DNA of 63,706 nt, filler included, from Reclinomonas americana ATCC 50394 (taxonomy: Eukaryota): assembly GCA_048213135.1 (NCBI GenBank). It is 20 parts of 20 records of this genome, joined end to end, with 100 filler letters (N's around TTAATTAATTAA, not from the genome) between each part and the next. Parts side by side here need not be neighbours in the genome. Positions count along the whole stretch, not along the records: positions 1,665 to 9,197 come from AFZH01018652.1; 19 more parts are not named here. One strand, 5' to 3'. Under the pieces are notes generated by a model that worked only from the letters and a program-made list of their open reading frames with translations, ran no database searches and was not told where the DNA came from. The first letter of the stretch is position 1. Every line of letters begins with the position of its first letter. The position numbers and the translations under genes were made by a program. Below are positions 1 to 61,670 of the stretch, one piece after another.

Positions 1-329
1 AGAGAGAGAGAGAGAGAGAGCAGCAGAAGAACAGGCTGCTGCTACATCTTACTTTTTCCGATGAGAGCAACCAGCGAGAAGGCGAGAGAGCATGAAGGAT
101 AGTCAGAGAAGAGAAGAGAGCTTCTTTTCTCCCTCGCCACACCGCTGCTTCTTGGACGACGAACAGATGCGAAGGCAACAGCAGAAGACCACAGGCAGCA
201 ACACAGAGAGAGAGAGAGAGAGAACGCAGCGCTTCAACAGAGAAACCGCGACGAGCACACGAGAAAGAACGAAAAGAGAGAAGAAGAGAGAGAACTGACA
301 ACCTCGCTCTTGTTTATCTTCTCCACGCT

Positions 330-960
330 TCTTGACGAAGAGCCAACATTAGTAGCAATCACAGTGAGAGAGAGTGAGAGGCAACAACAGAAACCGAGGC
401 CAAAAACGAGGCGAAGAAGACTGAGACGGGCAGAGAGACGAGGGGAGAGAGAGAAGATGATGAAGAACGACAACACCAGGCCCAACACTTGTAGAAGAGC
501 CAGCAGCAGCTACAATCACAAGCGAGAGAGAGAGGCGACAACAGAAACTGAGATCTGCGACGTGAAGACGAGAAAGGAAGATTGAGAGACAGGAAGAGAG
601 AGGAGAGGAGAAGAGAGAAAGAAGAACGACAATACCAGGCCCAACCCTTGTAGAAGAGCCAACAGCAGAGGCAATCACAAGCGAGAGAGAGAGAGGCGAC
701 AACAGCAACTGAGATCTGCGACGTGAAGACGAGAAAGGAAGATTAAGAGACACGCGGAGAGACGAGAGGAGAGGAAAAGAAGATGCTGAACGATAGTAGA
801 AGAGCCAACAGCAGCAACAATCGCAAGCGAGAGAGAGAGGCGACAGCAGAAACTGAGATCTGCGACGTGAAGACGAGAAAGGAAAACTGAGAGACAGGCA
901 GTGAGAGGAGAGGAGGGAGAGAAGATGATGAAGAACGACACCATCAGGCCCAGCCTTCTT
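330..960. repeat. Degenerate tandem repeat, about 3 copies of 130-170 nt
   Basis: AGAGAGGCGACA(A/G)CAG(A/C)AACTGAGATCTGCGACGTGAAGACGAGAAAGGAA recurs at about 530, 690 and 835. AGAAGAGCCA(A/G)CAGCAG recurs at about 493, 652 and 798. Confidence 0.8.
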
Positions 961-1446
961 GTCAACAGCCATCCCATTAAGAGAGAGAAGCCTTCGTCTT
1001 CCCCTTTTCCCCCTTCCTTCCCCTACATCACGCAACAGCCGCCACCCCCGCTCCTTCCCCTCCTCCTCCCGCCCCCACCGTCACCACCACTCTCGACGAA
1101 GGCGCCGACACGGGCTTCCCCGTGCGATACACATCCACGTACTTGGCCACCACTCCCGCCGCCGTACCCACCAGCACCCCATCAGCGCCACAGAACTGCA
1201 GGTGCTCCACTGCACGTGATCGCACTCCTCCGCTCACTCCTCCTCCGCCTCGAGGAGACAGCGATGAGGAGCCCGGGAAGAGAATGAGCTGCTTCTGCAA
1301 GGCCACCTCAAAGCGCGAGAGACTGGTGGACAATGAGAGGGTGAGACAGTGTGAGGTCTGTACCTTCTCAGACGCAGTCTCCCTCTGGCGATCAATCGTT
1401 GCTCTCACAATCACTCTCTCATCCTTCCCCTCCTCTACCCTTGCCC

Positions 1447-1498
<52 letters not shown>

Positions 1499-1664
1499 GT
1501 TTCCCTCTCTCTTTCTCTGTTTCTCTCTCTCTCTTTCTCTGTTTCTCTCTCTCTCTCTCTCTCTNNNNNNNNNNNNNNNNNNNNNNNNNNNNNNNNNNNN
1601 NNNNNNNNTTAATTAATTAANNNNNNNNNNNNNNNNNNNNNNNNNNNNNNNNNNNNNNNNNNNN

Positions 1665-4600
1665 GGCCGGGCAGCGGCGGTGGTGGCGCATTCAGTGCCA
1701 GAGTGAGGACGTGCACAATCAGCTCAAAGAGAAAGTCCTGCGGTCGCTGCACTTCTTGCGTCTGCGCCACCAAGTCGTCGGCGAGTCGCTGCATGTGGCG
1801 AATGGCGCTGACCACCTGCTCAAACTCGCGGTGCATCTCTCGCCGCGCGGCCGCACGCTCTCGCGAATCGCGCTCTACCTCCTCCATTTGCCTCAGCACG
1901 AGTCGCGACGCAGGGTCTACAATCGGCGCGGCGCAGTCGACGCGTGTGATGTGCAGTGGACGCTGACCGCACACCACATCGAGCGTGCACGCCACATTCG
2001 GTGGATCGTACCTACACGCTGCATTTGAGCACCACCACGAAAGGCGGTTTTCTTGGCAAGTGCGCATACCTGCTGCAGGTCCAGAATCGAACAGAGCACT
2101 CGGCGTCGACGGTGCACACTGACGTGTGATCGTCGCCAGTGTGCATGGCGGCGACTGCCGTGACCGGCAAATCGTCAGTCATGCGCGAGACAATCGACAC
2201 GGCAGGTCGACCGTCGACAGCAACAGGCAGTGTCAGCGACGACGCGTCCACGTAACGCAGCGTGCCGTCTGCACACGCCACAAATGCAAGACCGGATCGA
2301 AGCAACGACAGGCTGCAGACGCGAACGCCAGCCGCAGTGTCCACGCTGGCCGCCTGCAACACGATAGTGAGGCACATCGCCAACTCTTCTCTCACCACAA
2401 CCTTCAAACCTTTGCAGTGGTCACATAGTCCGAGCTGACGTGCGCACACCTCTCCGATACATCCGGCACAATCATAATGCCGTCGTCGCCACCCATCACA
2501 AACTGCATTTGCACCAAGATAACGCGACCCTCGCTGGTACCGCAAAGTATGCGCACCACAGCACCACCCGATTCACCGGCATCAGCAACGGCACAGGTCA
2601 TCGTTTCCGCCTGCATCTCCAGCAACGGCACACGCTGAGATCGCACAGTCTGGTCAACGTCAAACCGGCACACCTCCGGCAGTGCCGTGTTCACCACACA
2701 CGCCTTCACCATCCCGCTGCGACACACCCACACGACAGCGCTCTGTGCCGGAGACTCCGCCAGAGGCCAGCACGCCACCATGATGACTGGCGATGGGTTG
2801 GCTTGGTCCTCGTCGATGACGGGCTCGGGGCCAATTACCACCAAAGGCGCCGCTTCTTCCACTTCCTCCGGTGCAGCTGCGGCTGGAGCGTGCGTCAGCG
2901 AGTGCAAAAGGACGGTGCCGTCAGAGTAGCCAGCCAGCAGGTGCGTCGATGCAGCGGCAGCGTGATGAATGCGGTGCGGCAGCGACAGCTTGCAAAATTG
3001 CAGCGCGGTTGCCGTGAGCACGCGTTGTGGTGCCTCCTCGTCGCGCACGCGCTCGGCGTGAGGATGTCGCAGTTGGAGTCGAGGAGGCGCGGCGACAGCG
3101 CCCGCGCCATCATCTGCATTCCACACGGACACGGTGCTGTGCATGTCGGGAGCGGCGGCCACCAGCGGGTCATCGGAGATGGCCACGGCGGCAAGCGGCA
3201 TTGTGCGACCACCAAAACGAGTCGCAGGCGGCGTAAAGGTGGCACGAATGGTTGGCAAGGCGGCCGCCGGTCCTCCCAACTCTCTCTCCCACAGCACGAC
3301 TGTGCCATCGTCGCCGCCAGTTACCACGCGCACCTTTGCGCCCGCAGCACCACCAATGGCCACGAATCGCGGCGTCATGACATGCAGACTTGCCCCCATG
3401 GATGACGCCGACTGGCCGAGGAACTGACCGCGAACCAAACGTTCGTCGGGCTGGAACGTCCACCGCTGCAGCCGCGGGTGAGCCTCCTCACGCGAGAGCG
3501 ATAGCACCGCACACTCGCCCTGCACAAAGCAAAGGGTCGAGATGGGGAATTCGTGCGCACGCTCCACACGGTGGATCACCGTCGCCACCGGCACCTCGGC
3601 GTCGGCGTCGATGGCCCACACCAAAATGCTCAAGTCGTTGCCGCCACTCGCCAAAAACTTGCTGTCGTGCGAGAAAACCAGGCAGCGCACCGGCGCACGA
3701 TGTCCGACCAAGTTGCGCGTCAGCGTTCCACGCCCCGCCGCCATGTTCACCAACTGAATGGTGGCCGAGGCGAGGCCGGTGGCCAGCCAGCAACCGTTGG
3801 GCGACAGAGCCACGCTCTGCGTATCGTACACACGCGCCAGGTGTGGCGGCTCGGCACTCAATCCGTACAGTCGTGGCATGAGGCGTCGCGCAGTCCACGG
3901 CAGTCGTACTTGCTGGTCATCGCTGTATTGCCGCTGGAAAAAGTACACATTGTCTTCGCGCGTGCAGGCAACAACTTCTTCGTAGTTTGTCGACGGCGTG
4001 CGGACACGACGCGCCGTAAGCGTCAACACGGCAGAGCGGTGTGGCGTGAATCCGCGCACACGTTTCACCACCGTCAGGATCGAGTCTTCAATCCGACCAG
4101 GCGGCTGCTCATCCACGGTGCGGAAGAACTCCGGCAGCAGCAACGTCGGCTGCCGCTCCAGCAACACATCGATTGGTTGCACGACGGCAGCACCGTCCCG
4201 CATCACCGCATCTGCAGGTGGATGCACCGGCCACTCACACACGCGCCCATCCCAAGTTCCCGCCACCACCGACTGCTCCTCGCCGCCGTCGTTCAGGAAG
4301 GCGACAGCCGGAATGCAATGGTCCGAGACAGCAATGGTTGACGAGCGACGCCACGCGCCGCTGCCCTCGTCGTAGTCGACAATCGTCAGCGTGCCATTGA
4401 GGTTGCCGCAACAGATGCGACGCGAGTCGGCAGAGACGGTGATCGACATGACTGGCGACAAGGCCATGTGATTGTACGGCGTTTGTCGCGCACCCCGATC
4501 CTCCACTATAACCAGCGAACCGTCCATGCAGCCAACAGAGTACAGCAGTCCATCGCGCGACGTGGCGACCGTGTTCATCACGGGATCGAGGAGTTCCAGT

Positions 4601-7600
4601 TGCGCTTGCGGTCCGGCCTGGCGGTTGCCAGGCGCAGCTTGCTTGGCCACTGTTTCCTGTTGGGTCGGAGGTGCGCCAAACGAAACACTGCACATCATCG
4701 TTTCGCGCAACGACGCCCCGTCGATAAAGGCACCGTGCAACCTCGCCCCCGTCATATTCGCGCCGTCCAGCAGTGTGCCGTGCATCACAACCTGCACACA
4801 CGCGTACACGCAAAGAGTGAGTGAAAAAGAGTGTACGCACAGGCGCAGCTGACAAACACGCAACATTGGTCAAGTCGGCGTACGCCAAGTGAGCAGAGCG
4901 CAAGTCGAGACCCGAAAACGACACGCCAGCATGGCAGAGAATCGTGGCAGCATTCGAGGTGGCACAGTTCACCCACGGCCGACTGCTCGTTGGCACACCA
5001 TCTGCCGCGTCCCACTCATGCACTGCGTGATGCAGTCGCAACACACGATTCAGCAGGCAGTCCAGCACTCTGGCGTCTGAGCGAGCGGCGGCCGCCAGCA
5101 TCTCCAGCAACGTGTGGTCGTTGCGCTCAGACAAGTAGCACGTGCCGAGGAAGTGGCCACGCAGTGCCGTCTCCAGCTCGCGCTCATCCCCTACCGGCAC
5201 TGCGACCAACCGCTGCAATTGTCGCGCCAAGTAGTGATCACGCAGAAGCACATGAGCAAAGCGCGCGCTCGAAAAGTCATCGCTCAACAGCACAGTGGGA
5301 GCGCTGCGCTGCAGAATGTCCACGGCGAACTGCCAACTGTCCCCCGCCACGTTGATGCTGTCACTCTGTGCAAGATAGGCCTCCACGGCCAGTCGTTCCA
5401 GCACACGGATCTGATCGGCTTCGCGCATCCATCCCGGGCCCGCAAGGTGGTCATGGTAACCGTCACCGCGGTTGTGTGCAACATCACGCACTCCCAGCGA
5501 GCGCTCGCGCAGCACCTTGGCCAGCGTCGCCGCCAATGTGTACAGCTGCCGCCCACCTTTTTGGTTCAATTCGGCGATTCGTCGAGCGACTTGGGGCCAC
5601 GTCCACAGCAGTGGCAGGAACGACGGGACACGCGCCAGCTCACGGAGGGCAGGCACTCGCTGAGCGCTGTCCCACACCTCTTCACGCACTCGGCGGCACG
5701 TCTCGTCGTCAGGTCCCATGCCGTCCACTGCATCCAAGCCCAGCGCTTCGATGAGGTCGCGCAATCGTGGCTGCAGCGTCGCGATTGACCGGTCGATATC
5801 AGCTACCTCAGACGCGGCAATCTGCATGGCTGTCGAGTATGAGCGCGCTTCCTCGGCCAACTCGCTGACAAATCGCTCGATGAAGAAGTGAATCGCGGAG
5901 TCACTGAAGCCGGTGAGGGCGAGAACAGCGGCACCACCGGCTGTGGGACTATCCGTGCCCAGGAGCACCTTCGACACGGGTCGCAGAGCCTCGGAGCGCA
6001 CGCACACGACGACAGTAGTCTTGGGGTAATTGCCCAAGTCTCGCACCTGCATGTCAATGAGCAAAACGGCGGACGAACACATTTAAACTGCTGGTGAGAC
6101 GGACACGCAACGAGGCGAGAAGAGAACTTTGCTTCAGACACATCGGCAAGTACGTGCAAACCGTCCAGCATAAGCAACAGAGGGCGGCGACACAGTCGTG
6201 CGACTGCACTGGCAGTGGCCATGGTCGACACCGAAAGCTGCTGGAACCACAGGCGCACAAGGCCTTCGACAGTGAGGTCGCGGAGATGCTCTATACGCGC
6301 GCCGGCCAGATTGATGAGGAGAGGCAGTGGTTGCACCGTGCTGTTGACTGCGGCTGCGCTGTAGTTCAGCGCGAGATCTACCATGGCGCAGGTCTTGCCG
6401 CTGCCGACGGGTCCCACCACAAACACGACCTGTGTGGCGCCTGCACCGATACGTCGCGTTGCACAAAAGTCGAGAATCTGGTTAACGAGTGAGTTCGCTG
6501 CGACAGGGACGAGCACCAGGGAATACTCTTTCTTCACACACCTGTTGTTGTACTGGTTGCGGTTTGACTGCCGACGTATTCGGCTGCGGGGTGCAGTCGA
6601 GCGGGACTACAATCGACGGTACAAACGCTTCGTACATGGCGCACTGAGTGGCGACTGATCGTAGCAACGTGGCGCGATCGTCGACCACATCCATAGCATC
6701 GCCACCGGCTGCAAGGATGGTCAGGTCAACAGATGCACCCTTGACATGCAAACGCCAAATATTCACACACCTGGCACACTGAGCGTATCAAAGTCAACCA
6801 GCAGAGCCGCACACATGGACTCCGACATGTTGTACACATCGCGAAGTCGGCGAGTGACAGTGTCCATCGCCAGCCGCAATTCAGCAATAGCCTGAGCATA
6901 CACGGCCTCCTCCATTCCGACAGCACCGCGGTGGACCATGTCGTTCTTCACATCGCGGACTCTTTTCAGCAGCTCCTGTTGCGAGCAAACAACGTGAGAC
7001 AACCTACGCAGGGACAGCAAAGAGAACAGAGGAACGGAAACGCAACCAACAACCCGCGATCGTCGCACAGCGGAATGGCGTATCGATCCTTGCTGTTTTC
7101 GGCATCCCAAAAAACTTTCGCTCGGTCAGGGGGCAGCGCGGTTGACAGCGACCACACCTCCGCGGCAGCGACATCGGCAGGGTTGATGCCGCACCGGTAT
7201 GCTACGAATTCCAAGATGTTGATAATCTTGCCCGAGTCAAACGACACCACAATGTCCTCATTCTCTGGGTTCTCGTACAAACAGCAGAGAGTGCGACAGG
7301 CAGTCGCTGAGTTGCAGTTGTCAAGGAAACTCTCGCGGGGCGGTTTTCCGCGCTTAGCTTGGCTGCCTGGAGAATACCAGCAATATCTGCATAACCTGCA
7401 AGTCAGCGCAGCGAGAACAAGAGAAAGTCACTGAAAATCTACACGCGAACCTCCACGCATCGAGGTCAACTTGCTCCACAAGGGGAAAAGAAACCTCTTC
7501 GGCTTCCGCGCGCTCAATTGCAGTCTTTGTTGCTGCATCAAGTGCTTTCGCGGTGAAAGCGTCTACACACACACCGCCAAGGAAACATGCTTTCTGCGCA

Positions 7601-9197
7601 TCAAAGTCTGGCTCGCCGGTGAAAGCACAGCGTTCTTGCACAGCTGCTTTGAAGCGGCGCATCTCCTTGCGCAGGAGTGCAACCAGCGCCGGTCGCAGGC
7701 CAGCATTCAAGGTCGCGCGCAACGTAACAATCTCAGCCGAACCCCTGTGACCAAGACACAAGATGCTCTTGTCAGCATATTACATACGCATGGACGGCCA
7801 GTTGCGAAACAAACCGTGACATGAGGTACCAACTGGCGGCATCCTGACTGCGCTGATGCTCCAGCGACACGAGGTCTCTGAAAGCATGTGCGTACACCAC
7901 CCAGAATCAGATCACCAAACAAGATGACGGCAGCAGTGGTAGCGCGGACTTGCCTATTGAAATCCGCACAGAGAAGCGGGTCCGCGGCCATTTCCACGCA
8001 ATGGAGAGAAGGGAAGCCCCATTGAGGCAGCGCTTGGCCGTGAGTACCCACCAGATTTGACAGGAGAGGCATGTGCATGACCGCCAAGCGCAAGCCATCG
8101 AGGGTGGTGAGCTCGACCTCCGTCTCCGCCTCATCAGGTTCGTCATCAGCATCGTCTCCGTGAGCAATCAACAGGTCGACCACGCCAAGGTCGCCGCAAA
8201 CGACGCCTTGCATTCCATATCCTCTCGCCAGTCGCTGCACACAGCGCAAACCAAGTGCAAGGCGGTCGGATGGTTCCGTGGCCGAGCAGTAGAGCAGCCA
8301 CATACGCAGCAATTCCACTGACGAGAGATGCGCGACGCACAATGGACCCAGCAGTCGCACCAAACGTAACACGGAGAGCGAGCGCAGCAGATGCACGTCG
8401 TGCCGTTTCACGGCCGCCTGGTACAGCTCCTCGCCAAGGTAGGTCTCAATCGAGGGCAGTGATGGCGGCAGAAGGTGTTGCACTTGGATGTTTTGCAGCT
8501 GGTACGAGTTGCTCGCCAGGTCGAGGGGCGCCAACAGTCGCATACATTGGCTGGGATCATAATCGCCATGCATGAGCTGGAGGACCTCATGCCGCGTCGC
8601 AATGATCAAGCGCAAGTTGTGGTAGTGGGCGAGCTGCAACGAATGGTTCATGAGGCTACATTTAGTAGGCGTACATGCACGGACGTTCGACAAACCTGAA
8701 AGCGGTCAACCAGCGGGGTTTGAAGCTGATATGCAGCACTGCTATCCAGTCCGTCGATGAACAGAGCAATGCGCATATGTCGAAGAACTTGGATCAAGCC
8801 GAGCTCGGAGACTCCAGGATGCAACTGCTGCACCAGGTGCACCACCAAGTCGAAACTTGCCGACTCGCGGTGCAGCAGTGTGTCAGTCAAGTCGACGTAT
8901 AGTGGCAGCATATAGTCGGTGCCGTCCAGCACACACTGCGCCAATGTCGAGGCGCACTCGCGCAGTAAAGAAGTCTTGCCACTCCCTCGCGGACCCTCCA
9001 CGAGAAGAACGCGGGCGCTGTTGCCGCCATCGCTTTGCGCGAATTGCAACACCTGCGCGTGACCGTTGTTGTGTGAGCAATCTGAATTCAGAGGGAGACA
9101 GACACTCACTCATGTATATCACACCCTCACCTCCTGGCTTGCGCTGTTATATGCACCGTCACCCAGTGCACTATCATCGAGCCGAAGCGTCGTCTGC
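1665..9197 (-). CDS. Large multi-exon STAND/NLR-like protein: NACHT-like NTPase, HEPN-like helical domain, second NACHT NTPase, pentapeptide repeats, WD40 repeats (both ends run into gaps)
   Basis: NTPase 1: Walker A VLLVEGPRGSGKT (about 8972-9010), Walker B ALFIDGLD, sensor RLIIATR. NTPase 2: Walker A VFVVGPVGSGKT (about 6391-6425), LLLMLDGLH, VVVCVRSE. Pentapeptide stretch NAATILCHAGVSFSGLDLRSAHLAYADLTN|VVMHGTLLDGANMTGARLHGAFIDGASL. WD40 repeats such as GHRAPVRCLVFSHDSKFLASGGNDLSILVW and VVTGGDDGTVVLWE. The junctions I traced between the two NTPases are in phase. Confidence 0.85.
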
Positions 9198-9337
9198 NNN
9201 NNNNNNNNNNNNNNNNNNNNNNNNNNNNNNNNNNNNNNNNNTTAATTAATTAANNNNNNNNNNNNNNNNNNNNNNNNNNNNNNNNNNNNNNNNNNNNAAA
9301 AGCACAAATGCACGAGGAAGCACACGCACACACACAC

Positions 9338-15109
<5,772 letters not shown>

Positions 15110-30138: not shown

Positions 30139-31149
30139 TGTATACTAGTAGTGTACTGTACAATGCGACGAGAAAGAGAGTGCGACGGGAGACATCCGTT
30201 TCCCTCGACTTGGCCAGCGACCGAAACAAACAACACGTTTGCGACTGCGACCGCGGTTGCAAATAGGAACGGCAATCAGTGGGCAGTTGTCTACCTCAAA
30301 GGATGTCGATGTCTTCAAAGTCACGGCTTCGCTGGCGGGCCTTTTGATGTGCCGACCAGTCGACGTCGTCTTCTCTGAGCAACGTCGTGACCATTGCTAA
30401 CGCCCAAGCAATATCGAGCATTTCGTAACATTATAGCGACCAACGTACACCTTCCCCACAGCACAAGCAACCACCGCACAGCCAACGTCGACGTCAGCAT
30501 TATGCTCAAAATAGCCACAGTGACGTCACCGACAACATCCTTGCTTCGTTTCTGACACGCCAATGTCGTCAGCACTGCCTGCTGTGCAGCGCCACTCGCC
30601 CGACGATGACAGCGGCTCTCTAGTTCGTCCACTCGCCGAACTGTGCTTTGTGCGACCAGGCTCAACAGCAACAACAACAACAGCAACTCCGACTCCGACT
30701 TCTTCTTCTTCTTCTTCTGCGACTNNNNNNNNNNNNNNNNNNNNNNNNNNNNNNNNNNNNNNNNNNNNTTAATTAATTAANNNNNNNNNNNNNNNNNNNN
30801 NNNNNNNNNNNNNNNNNNNNNNNNTCTCCCTTCACTTCCCCCTTCCTCTCCCTTCACTTCCCCCTTCGTCTTCCCCTGCCATCTTCCCCTTCCGTCTTCC
30901 CCTGCCATCTTCCCCTTCCGTCTTCCTCTTCCATCTTCCTCTTCCATCTTCCCCTTCCGTCTTCCTCTTCCGTCTTCCTCTTCCATCTTCCCCTTCACAT
31001 CCCCCTTCTCTTCCCCCTCTCTTCCCCCTCTTCCCCCTTCTCCTTCCCCCTTCTCTTCCCCTTCTCTTCCCCTCCCTTTCCCCTTCTCTTCCCCTTCTTT
31101 TCCCCCTCCCTTTCTCTTCCCCTCTCTCTCCCCCTGCTCTCCCCCACAG

Positions 31150-47225: not shown

Positions 47226-49885
47226 ATGAAGCGTGAGAGAAGTGGCAAGAGTGCCAGCGGCAAGGTGCCCTTCAAGCGACACAAGTCGGGCGCGGAGGGG
47301 AAACCGGCGAGAAGAAACGCGGGCGGCAAGTTCCGCGCGAGTTGCGTCGCTTTTTTGGCCATGTGCACATTCACATCATCCACTCACGCTCTCACTGAAA
47401 ACAATAGAGTCCACAGATGAGGAGCGCAAGTCGTTCCACAGAAAACGAGGTGCTGCAGCAGTCAACAAAAAGGACGAAGTGGTCGACGATGATGATGACG
47501 ATGATGATGATGATGTCGAGGGACAAGCGGATGCCAACTATGTGGCGTTCCTGTCGCTGCTGCGAGGCAGTCGACGATTGGAGTCTGCAGCGGCGGGTAG
47601 GACAGAGGGAGAGGACGGCGATGAGGCGATGGACGGTGACGACGATGACGATGAGGACTTGAGTGTGAAGAGACCAACCGTGGCGGATGGAGAGATGGAG
47701 AGTGGACTGGAGCTGGGCGAGGATGCAGAGGAGGAAGAAGAGGAGGAGGACGAGGATGCAGGGCATGTGGCAGTCGATGATGGTGTGCGGCTGGACGAGG
47801 AGTGGTGGCAAGCGGTTTCGTCGTACACGGAGGAGACGGTGAGTGTGGTTGCATGTGTGTGTGTGTGTGCGTGCAGGTGCTGACTGCTTCGACGGAGTGC
47901 AGGATCTGGCGCGGCTAAAGGCTCCACTGCCACCGCACACGGAGATGCAGGCCATCTCGTCCAAGGCGGCGCATCCGTACTCTTCGCTCGGCGACTCGGT
48001 GGCGGCGTGGCGCTCGGAGGCAACACGCACGCCCACGGTGTGCGACGATGTGAGTCGCATCATGCGGAAGCGTTTGGCCGACTACTGGACACGACGGTGT
48101 GAGGAGCTGGGCGAGCCTGTGCGTCTGTCGCCAGCCGAGGCCGCCTTTGTGGCCATTATCGCCTCGCGACGCGATCTGTTGTACGTGACGCCACTGAATG
48201 GCACCGAGTCGGTGGTCAATGTGGAGGACGAGCGTCGCCGACGTGCACTCTACGCACTCTACGGTCTGCACCATGTGATGCGGGTCAACGACCAGGTCGG
48301 CAAGCACAATGCGGTGTTGCGCGAAGAACAGAAAGATGAGAAGGAGGAGGATGACAAGATCAACGGATCGTCGGCCATTCAGCGACATGCTGCTCGTGCC
48401 AGGAAGAAGCAACAGGAGAAGCAACGGAAACACCGGTCGTCGGCTGAGTCCTCTGCTTCATCGTCGCAGCAACCGCGTTCCGAGTTCCACGACCAGGGAT
48501 ACACGCGAGCCAAGGTGCTCATCCTGCTGCCGCTGAAGAATACGGCGAGGGATGTTGTCAATGAGATCATTCGTGCGGTGACGAGGTACGCGTGCGTGGG
48601 AGAGGTGAAGTAGTCGAGGGCACGCCTTTGTCTCATGCTGTTGTTGCGCACAGCGACGGCACAGGAATCGTAATCAACCAGGATCGGTTCGACGACGAGT
48701 TCTCGTCGCCACCCGAGGCCGACGAGAAGTTGCAGTTGCGCCCAGTGGACTATCGGCACACCTTCCGCGAGAACATTGACGATTGCTTCCGCGTGGGACT
48801 CTCGGTGTCGGGCAAGCGCGTCAAACTGTTTTCCGATTTCTACACCTCCGACATTCTGGTGGCGTCTCCCCTCGGCTTGCGTCTGGTGGTCGGCGAGGAA
48901 GGGTGCGTGTGTGCCTCCATGGTGGAAGGGTGGTATCCTGTGGTGTTGTTGCTTATGCGCCGTTACTTTTTGTTGGGTAGCGAGGGCGAGCGAGAAATGG
49001 ACTTTTTGTCGTCTGTCGACCTGGTGGTGGCCGATCAGCTCGATGTGATGCTGATGCAGAACTGGGCGCACGTGGCTGCCACGTTTGCGGCGCTGAATCG
49101 CGTGCCGACGAAGCTGCATCACGCCGACATTTCACGCCTGCGACCGTACTTTGTGGACGAGGTGTCGGAGCGCTTCCGTTCCATCACGCTCCTGTCGCGT
49201 TATGCGTCGCCTGACGTGTCGGCCCTGTTCCGGAAGCATGCACAGTCGCAGTTCGGGCCGGTGATTGTGCGGCAGACGTATCCGGGTGTGTTGCCACGGG
49301 TCGCCGTGCCCGTGCGCATGGTCTTCCACCGCATAGTCGCCGACTCTGTGGCCACGGCCGACGATGCGCGCTTCACGTACTTTGAGCAACGCATCTATCC
49401 GAAGCTGGGAGAGCAGCAGACGCTGATCTTTGTGGCGTCGTATTTCGATTTCGTGCGTGTGCGCAACTTTCTCCAGCAGCACAACGTCCCGCTGGCCGTG
49501 TGCTCCGAGTACTCGACGGGTCCGGAGCTGTCGGTGGAGCGCGGCGCGTTTTTCCACGGCGAGAAGAAAGTGATGCTGATTTCGGAGCGCTTCCTCTTCT
49601 TCAAGCGGTGAGTGGAGCGCGATGCTCGGGGCCCGTGGCTGTGCACTGAGTGTTGTCGTTGTCAGGTACCGACTGCGCGGCGCCAAGCGTGTGGTGTTCT
49701 ACTCGCTGCCGGAGCATCCGCATTTCTACTCGGAGGTGATCAACATGGTGGACGAGGGTCGCGTCGATGTCTGTCCTGCGCTCTTTACGCGCTTCGATGC
49801 CATGGTCGTGGAGAGGGTGGTCGGCACGGAGAGTGCCAAGCACATTCTCAAGGGCACCAACAAGAACACGTTTATGTTTCGCTGA
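47226..49885 (+). CDS. UTP25: U3 snoRNA-associated protein 25 (DEF/DIEXF)
   Basis: DQGYTRAKVLILLP, FRENIDDCFRVG, LFSDFYTSDILVASPLGLR, DFLSSVD...MQNWAHV, SYFDFVRVRN, SERFLFFKR|YRLRGAKRVVFYSLPEHPHFY. Confidence 0.95.
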
Positions 49886-59620: not shown

Positions 59621-59651
<31 letters not shown>

Positions 59652-61670
59652 TCTGGTACTCGTCCACAATGCCGTTGCCGCCGAGCATGTCACGGCACTG
59701 GCGTGCAATCTCCAGCGCCTTGCCACACGAGTTGCGCTGGGGCACCACACACAACAGTCAGCCAACGTTTCCCTTCCTTTCCCCTCCATATTTCTCCAAC
59801 AAACCTTGATGAGCGAAATCATCTCCGGCACGGCCAGACCCTGATCCTTCAGGCGGCCCACCTGCAGCGCCGCCTGCAGACCGAGGCTAATCTCCACCAC
59901 GGCGTCGGCAAGCTTCTTCTGAATCAACTGGTTCTGTGCCAGCGGGCGGCCAAACTGGCGACGCTCCAACGTGTACGAGCGCGCCACCGCAACGCAGGCC
60001 TCGGCCGCACCGAGCGCACCCCATCCAATGCCGAAGCGGGCGCTGTTCAGGCAGCTGAACGGACCCTGCATTCGTCCACCGATAAGTGGTCGGCAGACAA
60101 CAAGAGAGTGAATGACACACACTAGTCGCACGCAACTCCCATGCCGGCAGCGAGTGGCAACCGATTCGCCTCGGGCACCACCACGTCTTCGAGCATGATC
60201 ATACCTGCCGCGCACCACGATCAGCAAAAACAGCGTGCAACTCTCTTCTCTCTTCCCCTTCTTACACGCACCAGTGACCGAGGCGCGCAGCGACATCTTG
60301 CCCTCGATCTTGGGTGTGGTGAAGCCCTTCATGCCGCGCTCCACAATAAACCCGCGCACCACCGGCTTCTTCTTCGCGTTCAACTCGTCGGTCTTGGCCC
60401 ACACCACCGCCAGGTCGGAGATGGGTGAGTTGGTGATCCACGTCTTGGAGCCATTCAGCACCCACGTCTTGTCGTCACGTCGCTTCGCACGCGTCTCCAT
60501 TCCGCTCGGATCCGAGCCGTGGTTGGGCTCGGTGAGGCCAAAGCAGCCGACCAGCTCGCCAGTGGCTGCACAAAGAGGAAAAAGATCAATGAGAGAGAAA
60601 GAGAGAGGGAAAGAGTGAGAGAGAATTGTTGTGCGTACCGAGTCGCGGCAGGAAACGCGTCTTTTGTTCCTCCGATCCAAATGTGTAGATCGGGTGCATG
60701 ACCAGTGACGACTGCACACTCATGGCGGAGCGGTAGCCGCTGTCGACTCTGTGCGGTGGGAGGGAAAGTGAGATAGGTAAGGGAGAAGAGTAGAGGGGGA
60801 GGGGTCGAGGAAAGCCGTACCGCTCCACTTCACGCGCAGCGAGGCCGTAGGCCACCGACGAGGCACCGGCGCAGCCGTAGCCGTTGATGGTGAGGCCGAG
60901 GGCGCCCATTTGGCCTGGGAAAAGGGGAAGGGAGAAAGGGGGGAGAAAGGGGAAGGGGGGAGGGGGGGAAGGGAGGGAGGACGTCAGCTTGCAGCAGGAT
61001 ACAAAAAAAAACACACACAGAAGAAAGGGGGGAGGGGGAGGGAGTGGGCGAGGAACATAGGGAGAGGACATCGATTTGCAGCAGGATAATAAACGCACAA
61101 ACAAACTGAGGGAGGGAGGGAGTGGGAAAGGAGCAGAGGGAGAGGACATCAATTGCAGAAGGATAAAATACCGCACAAATACACAACGGAAAGGGGGGGA
61201 GCGGGTGAAAAATAGAGGGACAGGACAACAGTGTGAAGCAAACACACCAAACGCAAAGAACGGGGGAAGGAGTGGAGGGGGAGGACGACAGTTTGCAGCA
61301 GGATACAAACAAACACACAGACACACAGAAGAAAGGGGGAAGGGGGGAAGGAGTGGAGGGAGGATACAAAGAGACACGAACACACAAAAGAAAGGGAGGA
61401 AGGGTACAGGGAGAGGACGACAGTTTGCAGTAGGATACAAACAAACACGCAGACACACAAGCGTAGATGCATGCAAGCACGCACAAATGCGCACAAACTT
61501 AAGCTCCACATATACAGGCACACACGCACACACACTCTCTCACGCACACAGTAAACTGATACCTCATGCAATAACTCACCAAATGCGCGCATGATATCCC
61601 GATCAAACTCCTCCTTGCGGAAACCACTCAGCACTCGCGGCTGCAGTTGCTCCTGCGAAAACGACCGGAT
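59482..61670 (-). CDS. GCDH: Glutaryl-CoA dehydrogenase (first exon(s) not located)
   Basis: [116 protein letters not shown]. Confidence 0.96.
60975..61445. repeat. Intronic degenerate repeat in GCDH
   Basis: GAGGAC...TTGCAG(C/T/A)AGGATA(C/A) recurs about 5 times. Confidence 0.65.

What the first reader, a model, noticed from the sequence alone, without database searches (positions are those of the whole stretch)
4680..9010. Protist NLR-like receptor with two NACHT modules, pentapeptide repeats and a WD40 sensor
Seen: two complete Walker A/Walker B/sensor sets joined by in-phase introns (one probably GC-AG, AG|GCAAGT at 7953), then NAATILCHAGVSFSGLDLR...VSFG and many WD40 repeats. Known: a similar NAxTIL...GVxFxGxDL pentapeptide linker between NACHT and WD40 occurs, as I recall, in Mortierellaceae fungi, their Mycoavidus endosymbionts and ciliates. 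Inference: this is an immune-type STAND receptor of that patchily distributed family, with an unusual tandem NTPase.
Basis: partly seen in the sequence, partly recalled or inferred. Interest (0 to 1): 0.75.

Follow-up and report, generated by a model that had tools for sequence, protein, structure and literature searches.

The report
Two-engine NLR-like gene in a protist
A eukaryotic gene with many short introns encodes a very large NLR-like protein of a family otherwise found mainly in bacteria living inside fungi, and it carries a second nucleotide-binding switch in front of the usual one.

Summary
Contig 1665-9197 of the window is filled by one minus-strand reading path: 13 exons, 12 introns of 50-81 nt, 2253 codons, no stop, open at both contig ends. 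It encodes NACHT 1, a 370-residue unknown stretch, NACHT 2 with its helical arm, 12 pentapeptide repeats, about 800 residues of degenerate WD40 propeller and a short tail.

Back-translated with the window's own spacing, it hit 78 bacterial loci, 69 of them in Mycoavidus. A profile of 64 of those proteins scores the window's protein at 92 bits; 200 shuffles reach at most -1. NACHT 1 passes Pfam's cut-off. NACHT 2 is supported by that profile and by a fold match to NLRC4.

The gene is a very divergent eukaryotic member: at most 28% identity, and no hit by phmmer in 1.84 billion representatives.

Not shown:
- One transcript: no RNA run was listed.
- An immune role.
- The ciliate part of the recollection.
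- The GC-AG intron: a GT-AG alternative at 7920 also keeps the frame.

Earlier notes of this scan described bacterial members of this architecture on other DNA.

The parts
1665..9196 (-). Partial gene, 13 exons, 2253 codons, open at both contig ends. Exons (high-low): 9196-9163, 9081-8696, 8633-7954, 7877-7815, 7744-7451, 7395-7054, 7003-6771, 6708-6542, 6477-6112, 6046-4865, 4791-2410, 2353-2070, 2011-1665.
   Evidence: Spliced model without a stop. Codon-usage frame test: 12 of 12 exons in frame. Read-through stops at 11 of 12 donors.
8586..9079 (-). NACHT 1 core: P-loop 8972-8995, Walker B 8744-8770 (DGLDS), sensor-1 Arg within 8586-8609. It is interrupted by intron 8695-8634.
   Evidence: Pfam NACHT 35.5 bits against a cut-off of 26.7, on exon 2 alone. 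Family profile 16.5-18.8 bits.
7954..8633 (-). Exon 3: the rest of module 1, helical with an acidic stretch. No family could be assigned.
   Evidence: Pfam: 0 families. Atlas: no usable hit. Single-sequence fold pLDDT 36.3, unusable.
6542..7877 (-). Inter-module region, residues 367-733, in five short exons. Domain content unknown.
   Evidence: No Pfam family above threshold. Coding frame supported by codon usage. No significant likeness to the arm of module 2: z -0.6.
7878..7953 (-). Candidate GC-AG intron (AG|GCAAGT ... TTTCAG). The alternative GT donor GTTTGG at 7920 gives a 43-nt intron and 11 more residues.
   Evidence: Enumeration of in-phase donors. Not decidable without RNA.
5990..6477 (-). 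NACHT 2 core: P-loop 6391-6414, Walker B 6154-6180 (DGLHV, both family-invariant acidic residues lost), sensor-1 Arg within 5990-6016. It is interrupted by intron 6111-6047.
   Evidence: Pfam NACHT 20.7 bits on exon 9 alone, below the cut-off. Family profile positions 54-227 match residues 747-928. Walker B column counts.
4955..5989 (-). Arm of NACHT 2 (helical domain, winged helix with F1118/H1120 at 5252-5260, second helical domain).
   Evidence: In alignment A1 the window keeps the invariant P, L, F and H columns. AlphaFold2 model pLDDT 67.2. Foldseek: 6 matches at E<=0.001, all NLRC4.
4902..4954 (-). Family signature NAATILCHAGVSFSGLDL at the entry to the pentapeptide run.
   Evidence: One match in the window, 0 of 100 shuffles. 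The same pattern hits 78 bacterial loci and at least 124 metagenome loci.
4672..4924 (-). Twelve pentapeptide repeats (residues 1230-1289, about three turns of a beta-helix), split by intron 4864-4792 without loss of register.
   Evidence: Register listing: 12 of 12 units have a hydrophobic centre. Pfam Pentapeptide 18.8 bits on the exon 11 part, just under the cut-off of 20.2. Family profile domain of 61.7 bits.
2070..4596 (-). Beta-propeller region of about 820 residues. It has one canonical WD40 repeat at 3616-3732; the other blades are degenerate.
   Evidence: Pfam WD40 64.8 bits and many propeller families. Colinear BLAST to P0002 at E 3.9e-21 and to family ORFs. Repeat profile: 3 units.
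1665..2011 (-). Last visible exon: charged, probably helical tail, then a proline run. It runs off the contig.
   Evidence: Model. No Pfam family.

Best explanation
This is one nuclear gene of a eukaryote. It encodes a protein of more than 2253 residues that is a divergent, intron-bearing member of the NACHT-pentapeptide-WD40 NLR-like family, known from Mycoavidus endosymbionts, Mortierellomycota and other bacteria. An extra NACHT module is added in front.

Shown:
- The domain order NACHT 1, unknown 370 residues, NACHT 2 with arm, family signature, 12 pentapeptides, propellers.
- The profile-level kinship of the NACHT 2-to-pentapeptide unit with the bacterial family.
- The NLRC4-like fold of the arm.

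Inferred mechanism: the protein works as a STAND switch. The propellers, held at a fixed distance by the rigid pentapeptide beta-helix, bind a ligand. This releases the ADP-locked NACHT 2, whose winged-helix histidine is kept. NACHT 2 has lost both invariant acidic residues after the Walker B aspartate (DGYDE in 64 of 64 relatives, DGLHV here), so it probably binds nucleotide but hydrolyses poorly. NACHT 1 keeps one of the two (DGLDS) and is the likelier driver of oligomerisation, passing the signal to whatever lies N-terminal of the contig end. A role in conflict with microbes, viruses or non-self is the most likely biology, by analogy with relatives, but it is untested.
For: Gene model:
- 0 stops in 2253 codons, 12 introns of 50-81 nt.
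- 12 of 12 non-training exons are best in the model frame, and intron G+C is lower than exon G+C.
- The pentapeptide register is kept across an intron.

NACHT 1: Pfam 35.5 bits against a cut-off of 26.7.

The two cores are homologous: E 2e-5; z 8.2, 0 of 300 shuffles.

Family membership:
- The motif pattern gives 78 bacterial loci, 69 in Mycoavidus, and one match in the window with 0 of 100 shuffles.
- The 64-ORF profile scores 92.0 bits. Its parts match residues 747-928 and 1111-1301 in the same order as in the family.
- 200 shuffles reach at most -1.0 bits and the reversed sequence gives no hit.
- One tblastn alignment to metagenome locus L152 spans residues 729-1393.
- The window keeps 15 of 15 invariant columns of A1.

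Fold: pLDDT 67.2. The best 6 PDB matches are all NLRC4, followed by NAIP, NLRP and NOD2.

Walker B counts.

Eukaryotic setting: introns in the gene, and UTP25, EDRF1 and acyl-CoA dehydrogenase genes on other contigs.

Literature, passages read:
- PMC11291939, on NACHT-PPR-WD40 in Mortierellomycota and Mycoavidus.
- Kibby et al. 10.1101/2022.07.19.500537: bacterial NACHT proteins defend against phage, and eukaryotes acquired NACHT modules several times.
Against: - No RNA evidence for any junction.
- Both protein ends are missing, so the effector is unknown.
- NACHT 2 alone is under Pfam's cut-off (20.7 bits; the domain is split by an intron) and scores only 8.6-11 bits on the core part of the family profile.
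- The gene is far from every relative. phmmer of exon 10 found 0 of 1.84 billion representatives. The best identity is 28% and its tree branch is 7.34 substitutions per site.
- Myxobacterial NACHT-pentapeptide-WD40 proteins score 155-194 bits on the Mycoavidus-type profile, twice the window's score. The window's gene is therefore the outlier.
- Module 1 beyond its core matches nothing.
- Only 3 WD40 units are recognisable by a repeat profile.
- The roles assigned to the two NTPases rest on two sequence positions only.
- No experiment exists on any member of this pentapeptide-bearing branch, as far as my searches show.
Confidence: 0.7

Rival explanations
1. There are two neighbouring genes rather than one: an upstream NACHT-only gene (module 1 plus part of the middle region) and a downstream canonical NACHT-pentapeptide-WD40 gene. 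Only my choice of splice sites reads them as one.
For: The canonical bacterial unit starts shortly before the P-loop that corresponds to NACHT 2. After exon 7 the read-through reaches a stop in 2 codons, and the next exon holds in-frame Met 683 and Met 702 ahead of the second P-loop. NLR genes often lie in pairs (general knowledge). No RNA was available to test this.
Against: The longest non-coding gap anywhere in the path is 81 nt, and the gap at that junction is 62 nt. That leaves no room for a terminator and a promoter unless the organism makes polycistronic, trans-spliced transcripts. Every gap starts with GT or GC and ends with AG in the right phase. All five middle exons show the same codon bias in the model frame. 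No spliced-leader or other RNA family was found in the window.
Confidence: 0.12
2. It is one gene, but not an immune receptor. It is a housekeeping or structural STAND/WD40 scaffold, like animal TEP1, NWD1 or NPHP3, that has kept the family's architecture.
For: The propeller blades are degenerate rather than highly repetitive or hypervariable: only 3 recognisable units. No paralogue was found on the other contigs of the window. Both NTPases deviate from the invariant DGYDE. Pfam's weak propeller matches include TEP1 and the weak P-loop matches include NPHP3_N.
Against: The nearest identifiable relatives are bacterial and fungal NLR-like proteins. These carry TIR, SIR2, nucleoside-phosphorylase, PARP-like or ARM-like heads typical of conflict systems. 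Bacterial NACHT proteins are shown to defend against phage (Kibby et al., passages). The family's distribution in endosymbionts and hosts fits conflict or symbiosis.
Confidence: 0.25
3. It is a decaying relic or an assembly chimera: a horizontally acquired gene that is no longer functional, or two loci joined by misassembly.
For: The protein is extremely divergent. Catalytic acidic residues are lost in both modules. The assembly is very fragmented, with contigs of 1-8 kb joined by linkers.
Against: The path is open for 2253 codons with codon bias kept in every exon. There is no N inside 1665-9197. All 15 invariant columns of the family alignment are kept. Twelve introns with consistent size and ends argue for long residence as a spliced gene.
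Confidence: 0.05

Closest known systems
NACHT-pentapeptide-WD40 NLR-like proteins of Mycoavidus cysteinexigens and Mortierellomycota (PMC11291939, passage read; PMC9815663, passages read)
   Same: Same order NACHT, helical arm, signature NAxTIL-x3-GVxFxGxDL, pentapeptide beta-helix, WD40 propellers. The distance from P-loop to signature is similar (465 residues here, about 390-435 in the bacterial ORFs). The profile scores 92 bits.
   Different: Identity is at most 28%. The gene has 12 spliceosomal introns. An extra complete NACHT core and 370 unknown residues lie upstream. The extended Walker B acidic pair is lost. No ARM_5-type head is seen, though the N-terminus is cut; Mycoavidus members carry PF23948. 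The propeller blades are degenerate.
Signature-bearing proteins of other bacteria: Francisellaceae MAG L076, Tatlockia L061, Gammaproteobacteria MAGs L026, L037 and L039, Myxococcota MAGs L003, L042, L058 and L077
   Same: The window's form of the signature (NAATIL..AGVSFSG.DL) is closest to these. In the quick tree the window lies outside the Mycoavidus clade, among these lineages. L076 also has a second, upstream NACHT-like core about 700 residues before the main one.
   Different: The upstream core of L076 has no P-loop and is followed by a PARP-like stretch. No likeness to the window's module 1 or middle region was detectable. The tree placement rests on very long branches.
Myxobacterial nucleoside-phosphorylase/SIR2/TIR-NACHT-pentapeptide-WD40 proteins (for example P0002, Sorangium). 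Earlier notes of this scan call this branch bNACHT clade 11 of Kibby et al.; I could not verify that label.
   Same: Same architecture. Model residues 1232-1811 align colinearly with P0002 residues 1015-1553, E 3.9e-21.
   Different: They lack the signature: 0 of the 36 proteins then held, among them the family's P0002 and P0006. Their profile gives the window only 41 bits. The enzymatic heads are known there and unknown here.
Animal NLRC4/NAIP and other NACHT NLRs (PDB 4kxf and others)
   Same: The fold of the arm of NACHT 2 (helical domain, winged helix, second helical domain) matches: 6 matches at E<=0.001. The winged-helix histidine is kept.
   Different: The sensor is pentapeptide plus WD40 instead of LRR. 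TM-scores are low (about 0.32) for a model of pLDDT 67. There is no sequence-level kinship beyond the NACHT motifs.
Plant NLRs with tandem NB-ARC domains (WTN1, abstract of 10.1101/2024.08.30.610185; Pib, search listing only)
   Same: Two STAND NTPase modules in one receptor polypeptide.
   Different: A different STAND clade (NB-ARC, not NACHT), an LRR sensor and an independent origin. This is an analogy only.

Membership tests
NACHT NTPase (Pfam PF05729), module 1 | Profile score at or above the curated cut-off | tested here: met
   35.5 bits against a cut-off of 26.7, on exon 2 alone.
NACHT NTPase (Pfam PF05729), module 2 | Profile score at or above the curated cut-off | tested here: inconclusive
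   20.7 bits on exon 9 alone. The domain is split by intron 6111-6047, and the spliced protein could not be handed to the Pfam tool.
NACHT NTPase, both modules | Walker A GxxxxGK[ST], Walker B hhhhD and sensor-1 arginine, in that order | tested here: met
   Module 1: GPRGSGKT, ALFID, ATR. Module 2: GPVGSGKT, LLMLD, CVR. All are aligned to the family columns.
NACHT NTPase, both modules | Extended Walker B acidic pair (D-G-x-D-E) | tested here: not met
   D and E are each present in 64 of 64 family ORFs. Module 1 has D-S and module 2 has H-V.
NACHT NTPase, module 2 | C-terminal helical domain plus winged helix with the conserved F-x-H | tested here: met
   F263 and H265 of exon 10 fall in invariant columns of A1. 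The fold matches NLRC4, NAIP and NLRP.
NACHT NTPase, module 1 | C-terminal helical domain plus winged helix | tested here: inconclusive
   No Pfam family, no atlas hit, and a single-sequence fold of pLDDT 36.3.
Signature-bearing NACHT-pentapeptide-WD40 family (Mycoavidus type) | Signature NAxTIL-x3-GVxFxGxDL at the arm/pentapeptide junction | tested here: met
   Exact match at 4902-4954(-). The same pattern finds 78 bacterial loci, each with the motif in an ORF.
Signature-bearing NACHT-pentapeptide-WD40 family (Mycoavidus type) | Colinear profile match from P-loop to the end of the pentapeptide run | tested here: met
   92.0 bits. Profile positions 54-227 and 366-557 match residues 747-928 and 1111-1301. 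Shuffles reach at most -1.0 bits. The middle of the arm (profile positions 228-365) is not matched.
Signature-bearing NACHT-pentapeptide-WD40 family (Mycoavidus type) | Two canonical seven-bladed WD40 propellers after the pentapeptide run | tested here: inconclusive
   Length and colinear BLAST fit, but only 3 repeat units are detected. No fold was computed for this part.
Signature-bearing NACHT-pentapeptide-WD40 family (Mycoavidus type) | Long ARM-like (PF23948) or other N-terminal head | not testable with these tools
   The N-terminus is cut by the contig end at 9197. There is no ARM_5 hit in the part present. Mycoavidus ORFs L014, L052 and L001 have it.
Bacterial anti-phage NACHT (bNACHT) systems | Protection against a virus that depends on the Walker A lysine | not testable with these tools
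   This is known for bNACHT01 (Kibby et al., passages). Nothing of the kind can be computed here.
Pentapeptide repeat (Pfam PF00805) | Profile score at or above the cut-off; A(D/N)LXX units in register | tested here: inconclusive
   18.8 and 12.5 bits on the two exon parts separately, against a cut-off of 20.2. 12 of 12 units have a hydrophobic centre when spliced.

The most novel reading that the evidence does not exclude
A eukaryote has taken up a bacterial-type NACHT-pentapeptide-WD40 sensor and built a sensor-plus-helper NLR pair into one polypeptide. The family-type NACHT 2 has lost the acidic pair thought to be needed for hydrolysis and serves only as the ligand-gated lock. The added NACHT 1 is the module that oligomerises and fires an N-terminal effector. 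That effector may be MORN repeats for membrane targeting, if the neighbouring contig is truly upstream. This would be a two-step NLR circuit fused in cis, outside plants and animals.
Probability: 0.15. Interest if true: 0.75.

Novelty: new variant of a known kind. Interest (0 to 1): 0.5.

Why it matters
NACHT NLRs of animals and fungi are thought to stem from several transfers from bacteria, often intracellular ones (Kibby et al., passages). This gene adds a further eukaryotic, fully intron-bearing member to a branch so far reported for Mortierellomycota and their Mycoavidus endosymbionts.

Two new points on distribution follow from the scans here:
- The branch's signature also occurs in MAGs labelled Francisellaceae, Tatlockia, other Gammaproteobacteria and Myxococcota.
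- The eukaryotic copy is not nested in the Mycoavidus clade, which argues against a simple symbiont-to-host story.

The cis-tandem NACHT has one module stripped of the acidic pair. It offers a natural test case for how two STAND switches divide binding, hydrolysis and oligomerisation. That question is now being asked of plant tandem NB-ARC helpers. The value is limited by the missing ends, the missing RNA evidence and the unknown organism.

Tried and rejected
1. Whole genome: none is held for this window, so paralogues and the missing gene ends could not be sought. tblastn of the model against the window found no paralogue on the other contigs.
2. Sequencing runs: none was listed for 1665-9197, so no reads were laid. 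This is no evidence either way.
3. Word-indexed homologue search with exon 10, longer proteins: 0 hits. phmmer of exon 10 against 1.84 billion representatives: 0 hits at E<=0.001.
5. Idea that module 1 plus the middle region is a degenerate copy of the whole NACHT-arm-signature unit. It was prompted by NCNSATACRTLC against NCATSNAATILC at the same distance from each P-loop. It was rejected as unsupported: beyond the core z is -0.6 (216 of 300 shuffles reach the score), and for the local piece 41 of 300 shuffles do.
6. Likeness of the window's N-terminal 1090 residues to L076, the bacterial ORF with two cores: nothing below E 0.007.
7. Atlas search with exon 3: no usable hit. With exon 10: best 0.91, 'NTPase (Fragment)', with NACHT, NCH2, nSTAND and Pentapeptide clusters at 0.83-0.86. 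These are leads only.
8. Single-sequence fold of exon 3: pLDDT 36.3, not used.
9. Regex count of WD blades: 7 hits after residue 1290, judged unreliable. It was replaced by the repeat profile.
10. Rfam over the whole window: 0 families.
12. Literature. Searches for NACHT + 'pentapeptide repeat' + WD40 (5 papers) and for NACHT-PPR-WD40 and variants (2 papers, 1 listed) gave only PMC11291939 as a description of this architecture. A search for NACHT, WD40, ciliates and horizontal gene transfer listed nothing on ciliate members. 'Two NACHT domains' gave 1 paper, on a drug binding to NLRP3 (listing only, not read), and 'tandem', 'double' and 'dual NACHT' gave 0.
13. Bacterial contamination was rejected: the reading frame is broken by 12 introns.

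Full report
SETTING. The window is not one continuous stretch. It is a chain of contigs of 1-8 kb joined by 100-base linkers (N44, TTAATTAATTAA, N44), so neighbours across a linker need not be adjacent in the genome. The finding lies on contig 1665-9197, which contains no N. No whole genome is held. Other contigs carry ordinary eukaryotic genes: EDRF1-like, UTP25 and acyl-CoA dehydrogenase. No Rfam family was found in the window.

GENE MODEL. All signals are on the minus strand. Stop-to-stop frames overlap in a staircase. I placed 12 introns at GT/GC...AG pairs in the right phase. The result is 13 exons and 2253 codons without a stop, open at both contig ends.
- Introns are 50-81 nt. Donors are mostly GTTTGT, GTGTGT or GTTGCG.
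- As an independent check I learned codon usage from exon 11 only. 12 of 12 other exons score best in the model's frame, and introns have 0.47-0.54 G+C against 0.56-0.64 for exons.
- Reading through the donor meets a stop at 11 of 12 junctions.
- The pentapeptide register runs unbroken across intron 4864-4792.
So does a GT donor, GTTTGG at 7920, with a 43-nt intron. That donor resembles the gene's other donors more closely and adds 11 residues.
- Exon 4 (63 nt, phase 2 at both ends) could also be skipped without a frame change.
- No sequencing run was listed, so no junction is confirmed by RNA.

THE TWO NTPASES. Module 1 has GPRGSGKT, ALFIDGLD and an ATR sensor. Module 2 has GPVGSGKT, LLMLDGLH and a CVR sensor. 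The P-loops are 714 residues apart (residues 41 and 755).
- The cores are homologous to each other: 27% identity over 150 residues, E 2e-5; z 8.2, 0 of 300 shuffles.
- Beyond the cores the two units show no significant likeness: z -0.6.
- Pfam NACHT gives module 1 35.5 bits, above the cut-off of 26.7. It gives module 2 20.7 bits on exon 9 alone, because the domain is split by an intron.
- For module 2 the rest of the evidence comes from exon 10. Aligned with 35 bacterial relatives, it keeps all 15 invariant columns, among them the P..L of the helical domain and the F-x-H of the winged helix.
- Folded with that alignment, the model has pLDDT 67.2 and pTM 0.61. Its 6 PDB matches at E<=0.001 are all NLRC4, followed by NAIP, NLRP2/3/7/9/14 and NOD2. 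TM-scores are low (about 0.32), so this supports the fold class and no more.
- Module 1 downstream of its sensor could not be assigned: Pfam 0 families, atlas no usable hit, single-sequence fold pLDDT 36.3.

THE FAMILY.
- Exon 10 has no detectable relative by phmmer in 1.84 billion representatives, nor by the word-indexed search.
- Exon 11 found 36 long WD40 proteins. Two have NACHT + Pentapeptide + WD40: P0002 from Sorangium, and P0006. Model residues 1232-1811 align colinearly with P0002 residues 1015-1553, E 3.9e-21.
- Searching with the NACHT-to-pentapeptide part of P0002 showed a large family. 1608 proteins had E<=1e-5 among 7999 scored, with 120 listed. They are mainly myxobacterial, with nucleoside-phosphorylase, SIR2 or TIR heads.
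The motif N-A-x-T-I-L-x3-G-V-x-F-x-G-x-D-L, back-translated with the window's spacing, has about 45 bits of information. By my own estimate this gives about 0.03 chance matches in 596 Gb. It matched 78 loci in the bacterial genome collection.
- Of these, 69 are in Mycoavidus cysteinexigens MAGs. The other 9 are in Myxococcota MAGs (4), Gammaproteobacteria MAGs (3), a Tatlockia MAG and a Francisellaceae MAG.
- In all 78 the motif sits in an ORF; where the ORF also holds a P-loop, the motif lies about 390-435 residues after it. The window's distance is 465.
- Pfam calls these ORFs NACHT (30.8-35.2 bits) + Pentapeptide + WD40. The heads are ARM_5 in Mycoavidus and a PARP-like stretch in the Francisellaceae ORF.
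- A profile of 64 of them scores the spliced protein at 92.0 bits. Profile positions 54-227 match residues 747-928 (P-loop 2 to the 'fs..i..yi..yv' helix). Positions 366-557 match residues 1111-1301 (winged helix, signature, whole pentapeptide run to VSFG), at 61.7 bits. Module 1 matches positions 54-171 at 16.5-18.8 bits.
- Controls: 200 shuffles reach at most -1.0 bits, and the reversed protein gives nothing. The myxobacterial proteins score 155-194 bits, so they are nearer to the Mycoavidus type than the window's gene is.
- A metagenome scan added at least 124 loci, none closer (best 70.1 bits). One alignment, to L152, spans residues 729-1393 in a single piece.
- In a quick maximum-likelihood tree of 67 rows the window falls outside the Mycoavidus clade (58 rows, SH-aLRT 86). 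It falls beside a Gammaproteobacteria MAG sequence (SH-aLRT 94). Its branch is 7.34 substitutions per site and its composition deviates, so the placement is unsure.
- In print, a passage of PMC11291939 says Mortierellomycota acquired NACHT-PPR-WD40 receptors from Mycoavidus. PMC9815663 (passages) notes shared N-terminal domains.

TANDEM MODULES ELSEWHERE. 3 of 64 bacterial family ORFs have two NACHT-core matches:
- L014: a truncated core, then a full unit.
- L018: two units in one ORF.
- L076: a P-loop-less core about 700 residues upstream of the full unit.

None resembles the window's module 1. Of the 123 proteins with a core hit in the comparison set, only the window's model had two. Tandem NB-ARC NLRs are known in plants (abstract).

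CATALYTIC RESIDUES. In the 64 ORFs the Walker B reads D-G-Y-D-E, with D, D and E each present in 64 of 64. Module 1 has D-G-L-D-S and module 2 has D-G-L-H-V. The sensor arginine (62 of 64) is kept in both. From established knowledge of NACHT and AAA+ NTPases, the acidic residues after the Walker B aspartate support hydrolysis. I therefore infer that module 2 binds but hardly hydrolyses nucleotide, and that module 1 is weakened. This is inference from two positions.

SENSOR PART. There are twelve pentapeptides (residues 1230-1289), each with a hydrophobic centre. About 820 residues of propeller follow. Pfam finds WD40 (64.8 bits, one unit passing alone) and many propeller families. A repeat profile from the relatives finds three units. 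The tail is charged, ends in a proline run and runs off the contig.

MECHANISM (inferred). The protein is a STAND switch. Ligand binding by the propellers is transmitted through the rigid beta-helix to NACHT 2, the ADP-locked, family-type module. NACHT 1 provides oligomerisation and output to an N-terminal part that is not on this contig. The biology is most likely conflict or symbiosis-related, by analogy with bacterial NACHT defence proteins (Kibby et al., passages) and with fungal NLRs (recalled). It is untested.

VERDICT. This is a new variant of a known kind. Earlier notes of this scan described bacterial members of the architecture on other DNA.

Noticed in passing
window 9298-11352, minus strand: The contig next to the gene's 5' end carries MORN-repeat exons on the same strand (Pfam MORN 24.9 and 20.5 bits). 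The last visible exon ends ...GYG followed by GTGTGT and runs into the linker towards 9197. If the two contigs are truly adjacent, these could be upstream exons of the NLR-like gene. The six-frame-stop linker gives no assurance of adjacency.
   Followed up: partly
whole window: 20 linker sites, e.g. 1565-1664 and 9198-9297: The window is a concatenation of short contigs joined by N44-TTAATTAATTAA-N44 linkers. Gene neighbourhood across linkers should not be interpreted.
   Followed up: yes
L076:2-4534:+ (uncultured Francisellaceae MAG): This bacterial family member has a P-loop-less NACHT-like core at residues 175-335 and a weak PARP-like stretch near residue 500. The canonical NACHT-pentapeptide-WD40 unit follows. 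It is a degenerate tandem arrangement that arose independently of the window's.
   Followed up: partly
L014:2-8053:+ and L018:2382-7469:- (Mycoavidus MAGs): Single ORFs hold one and a half (L014) or two (L018) NACHT units of the family. These could be in-frame fusions of tandem paralogues or assembly joins.
   Followed up: no
L003, L042, L058, L077 (Myxococcota MAGs); L026, L037, L039 (Gammaproteobacteria MAGs); L061 (Tatlockia): The linker signature occurs outside Mycoavidus, in MAGs of several phyla. The papers I read do not mention this wider spread.
   Followed up: partly
window 1-1564: This contig is dominated by CT/GA microsatellites and low-complexity frames (SLSL..., ERER...). No gene was recognised.
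   Followed up: no
window 30777-32402(+), 48565-49611(+), 59637-61539(-): Ordinary eukaryotic genes lie on other contigs: EDRF1 N-terminal domain (162.6 bits), UTP25 (186.3 and 102.1 bits) and acyl-CoA dehydrogenase.
   Followed up: partly
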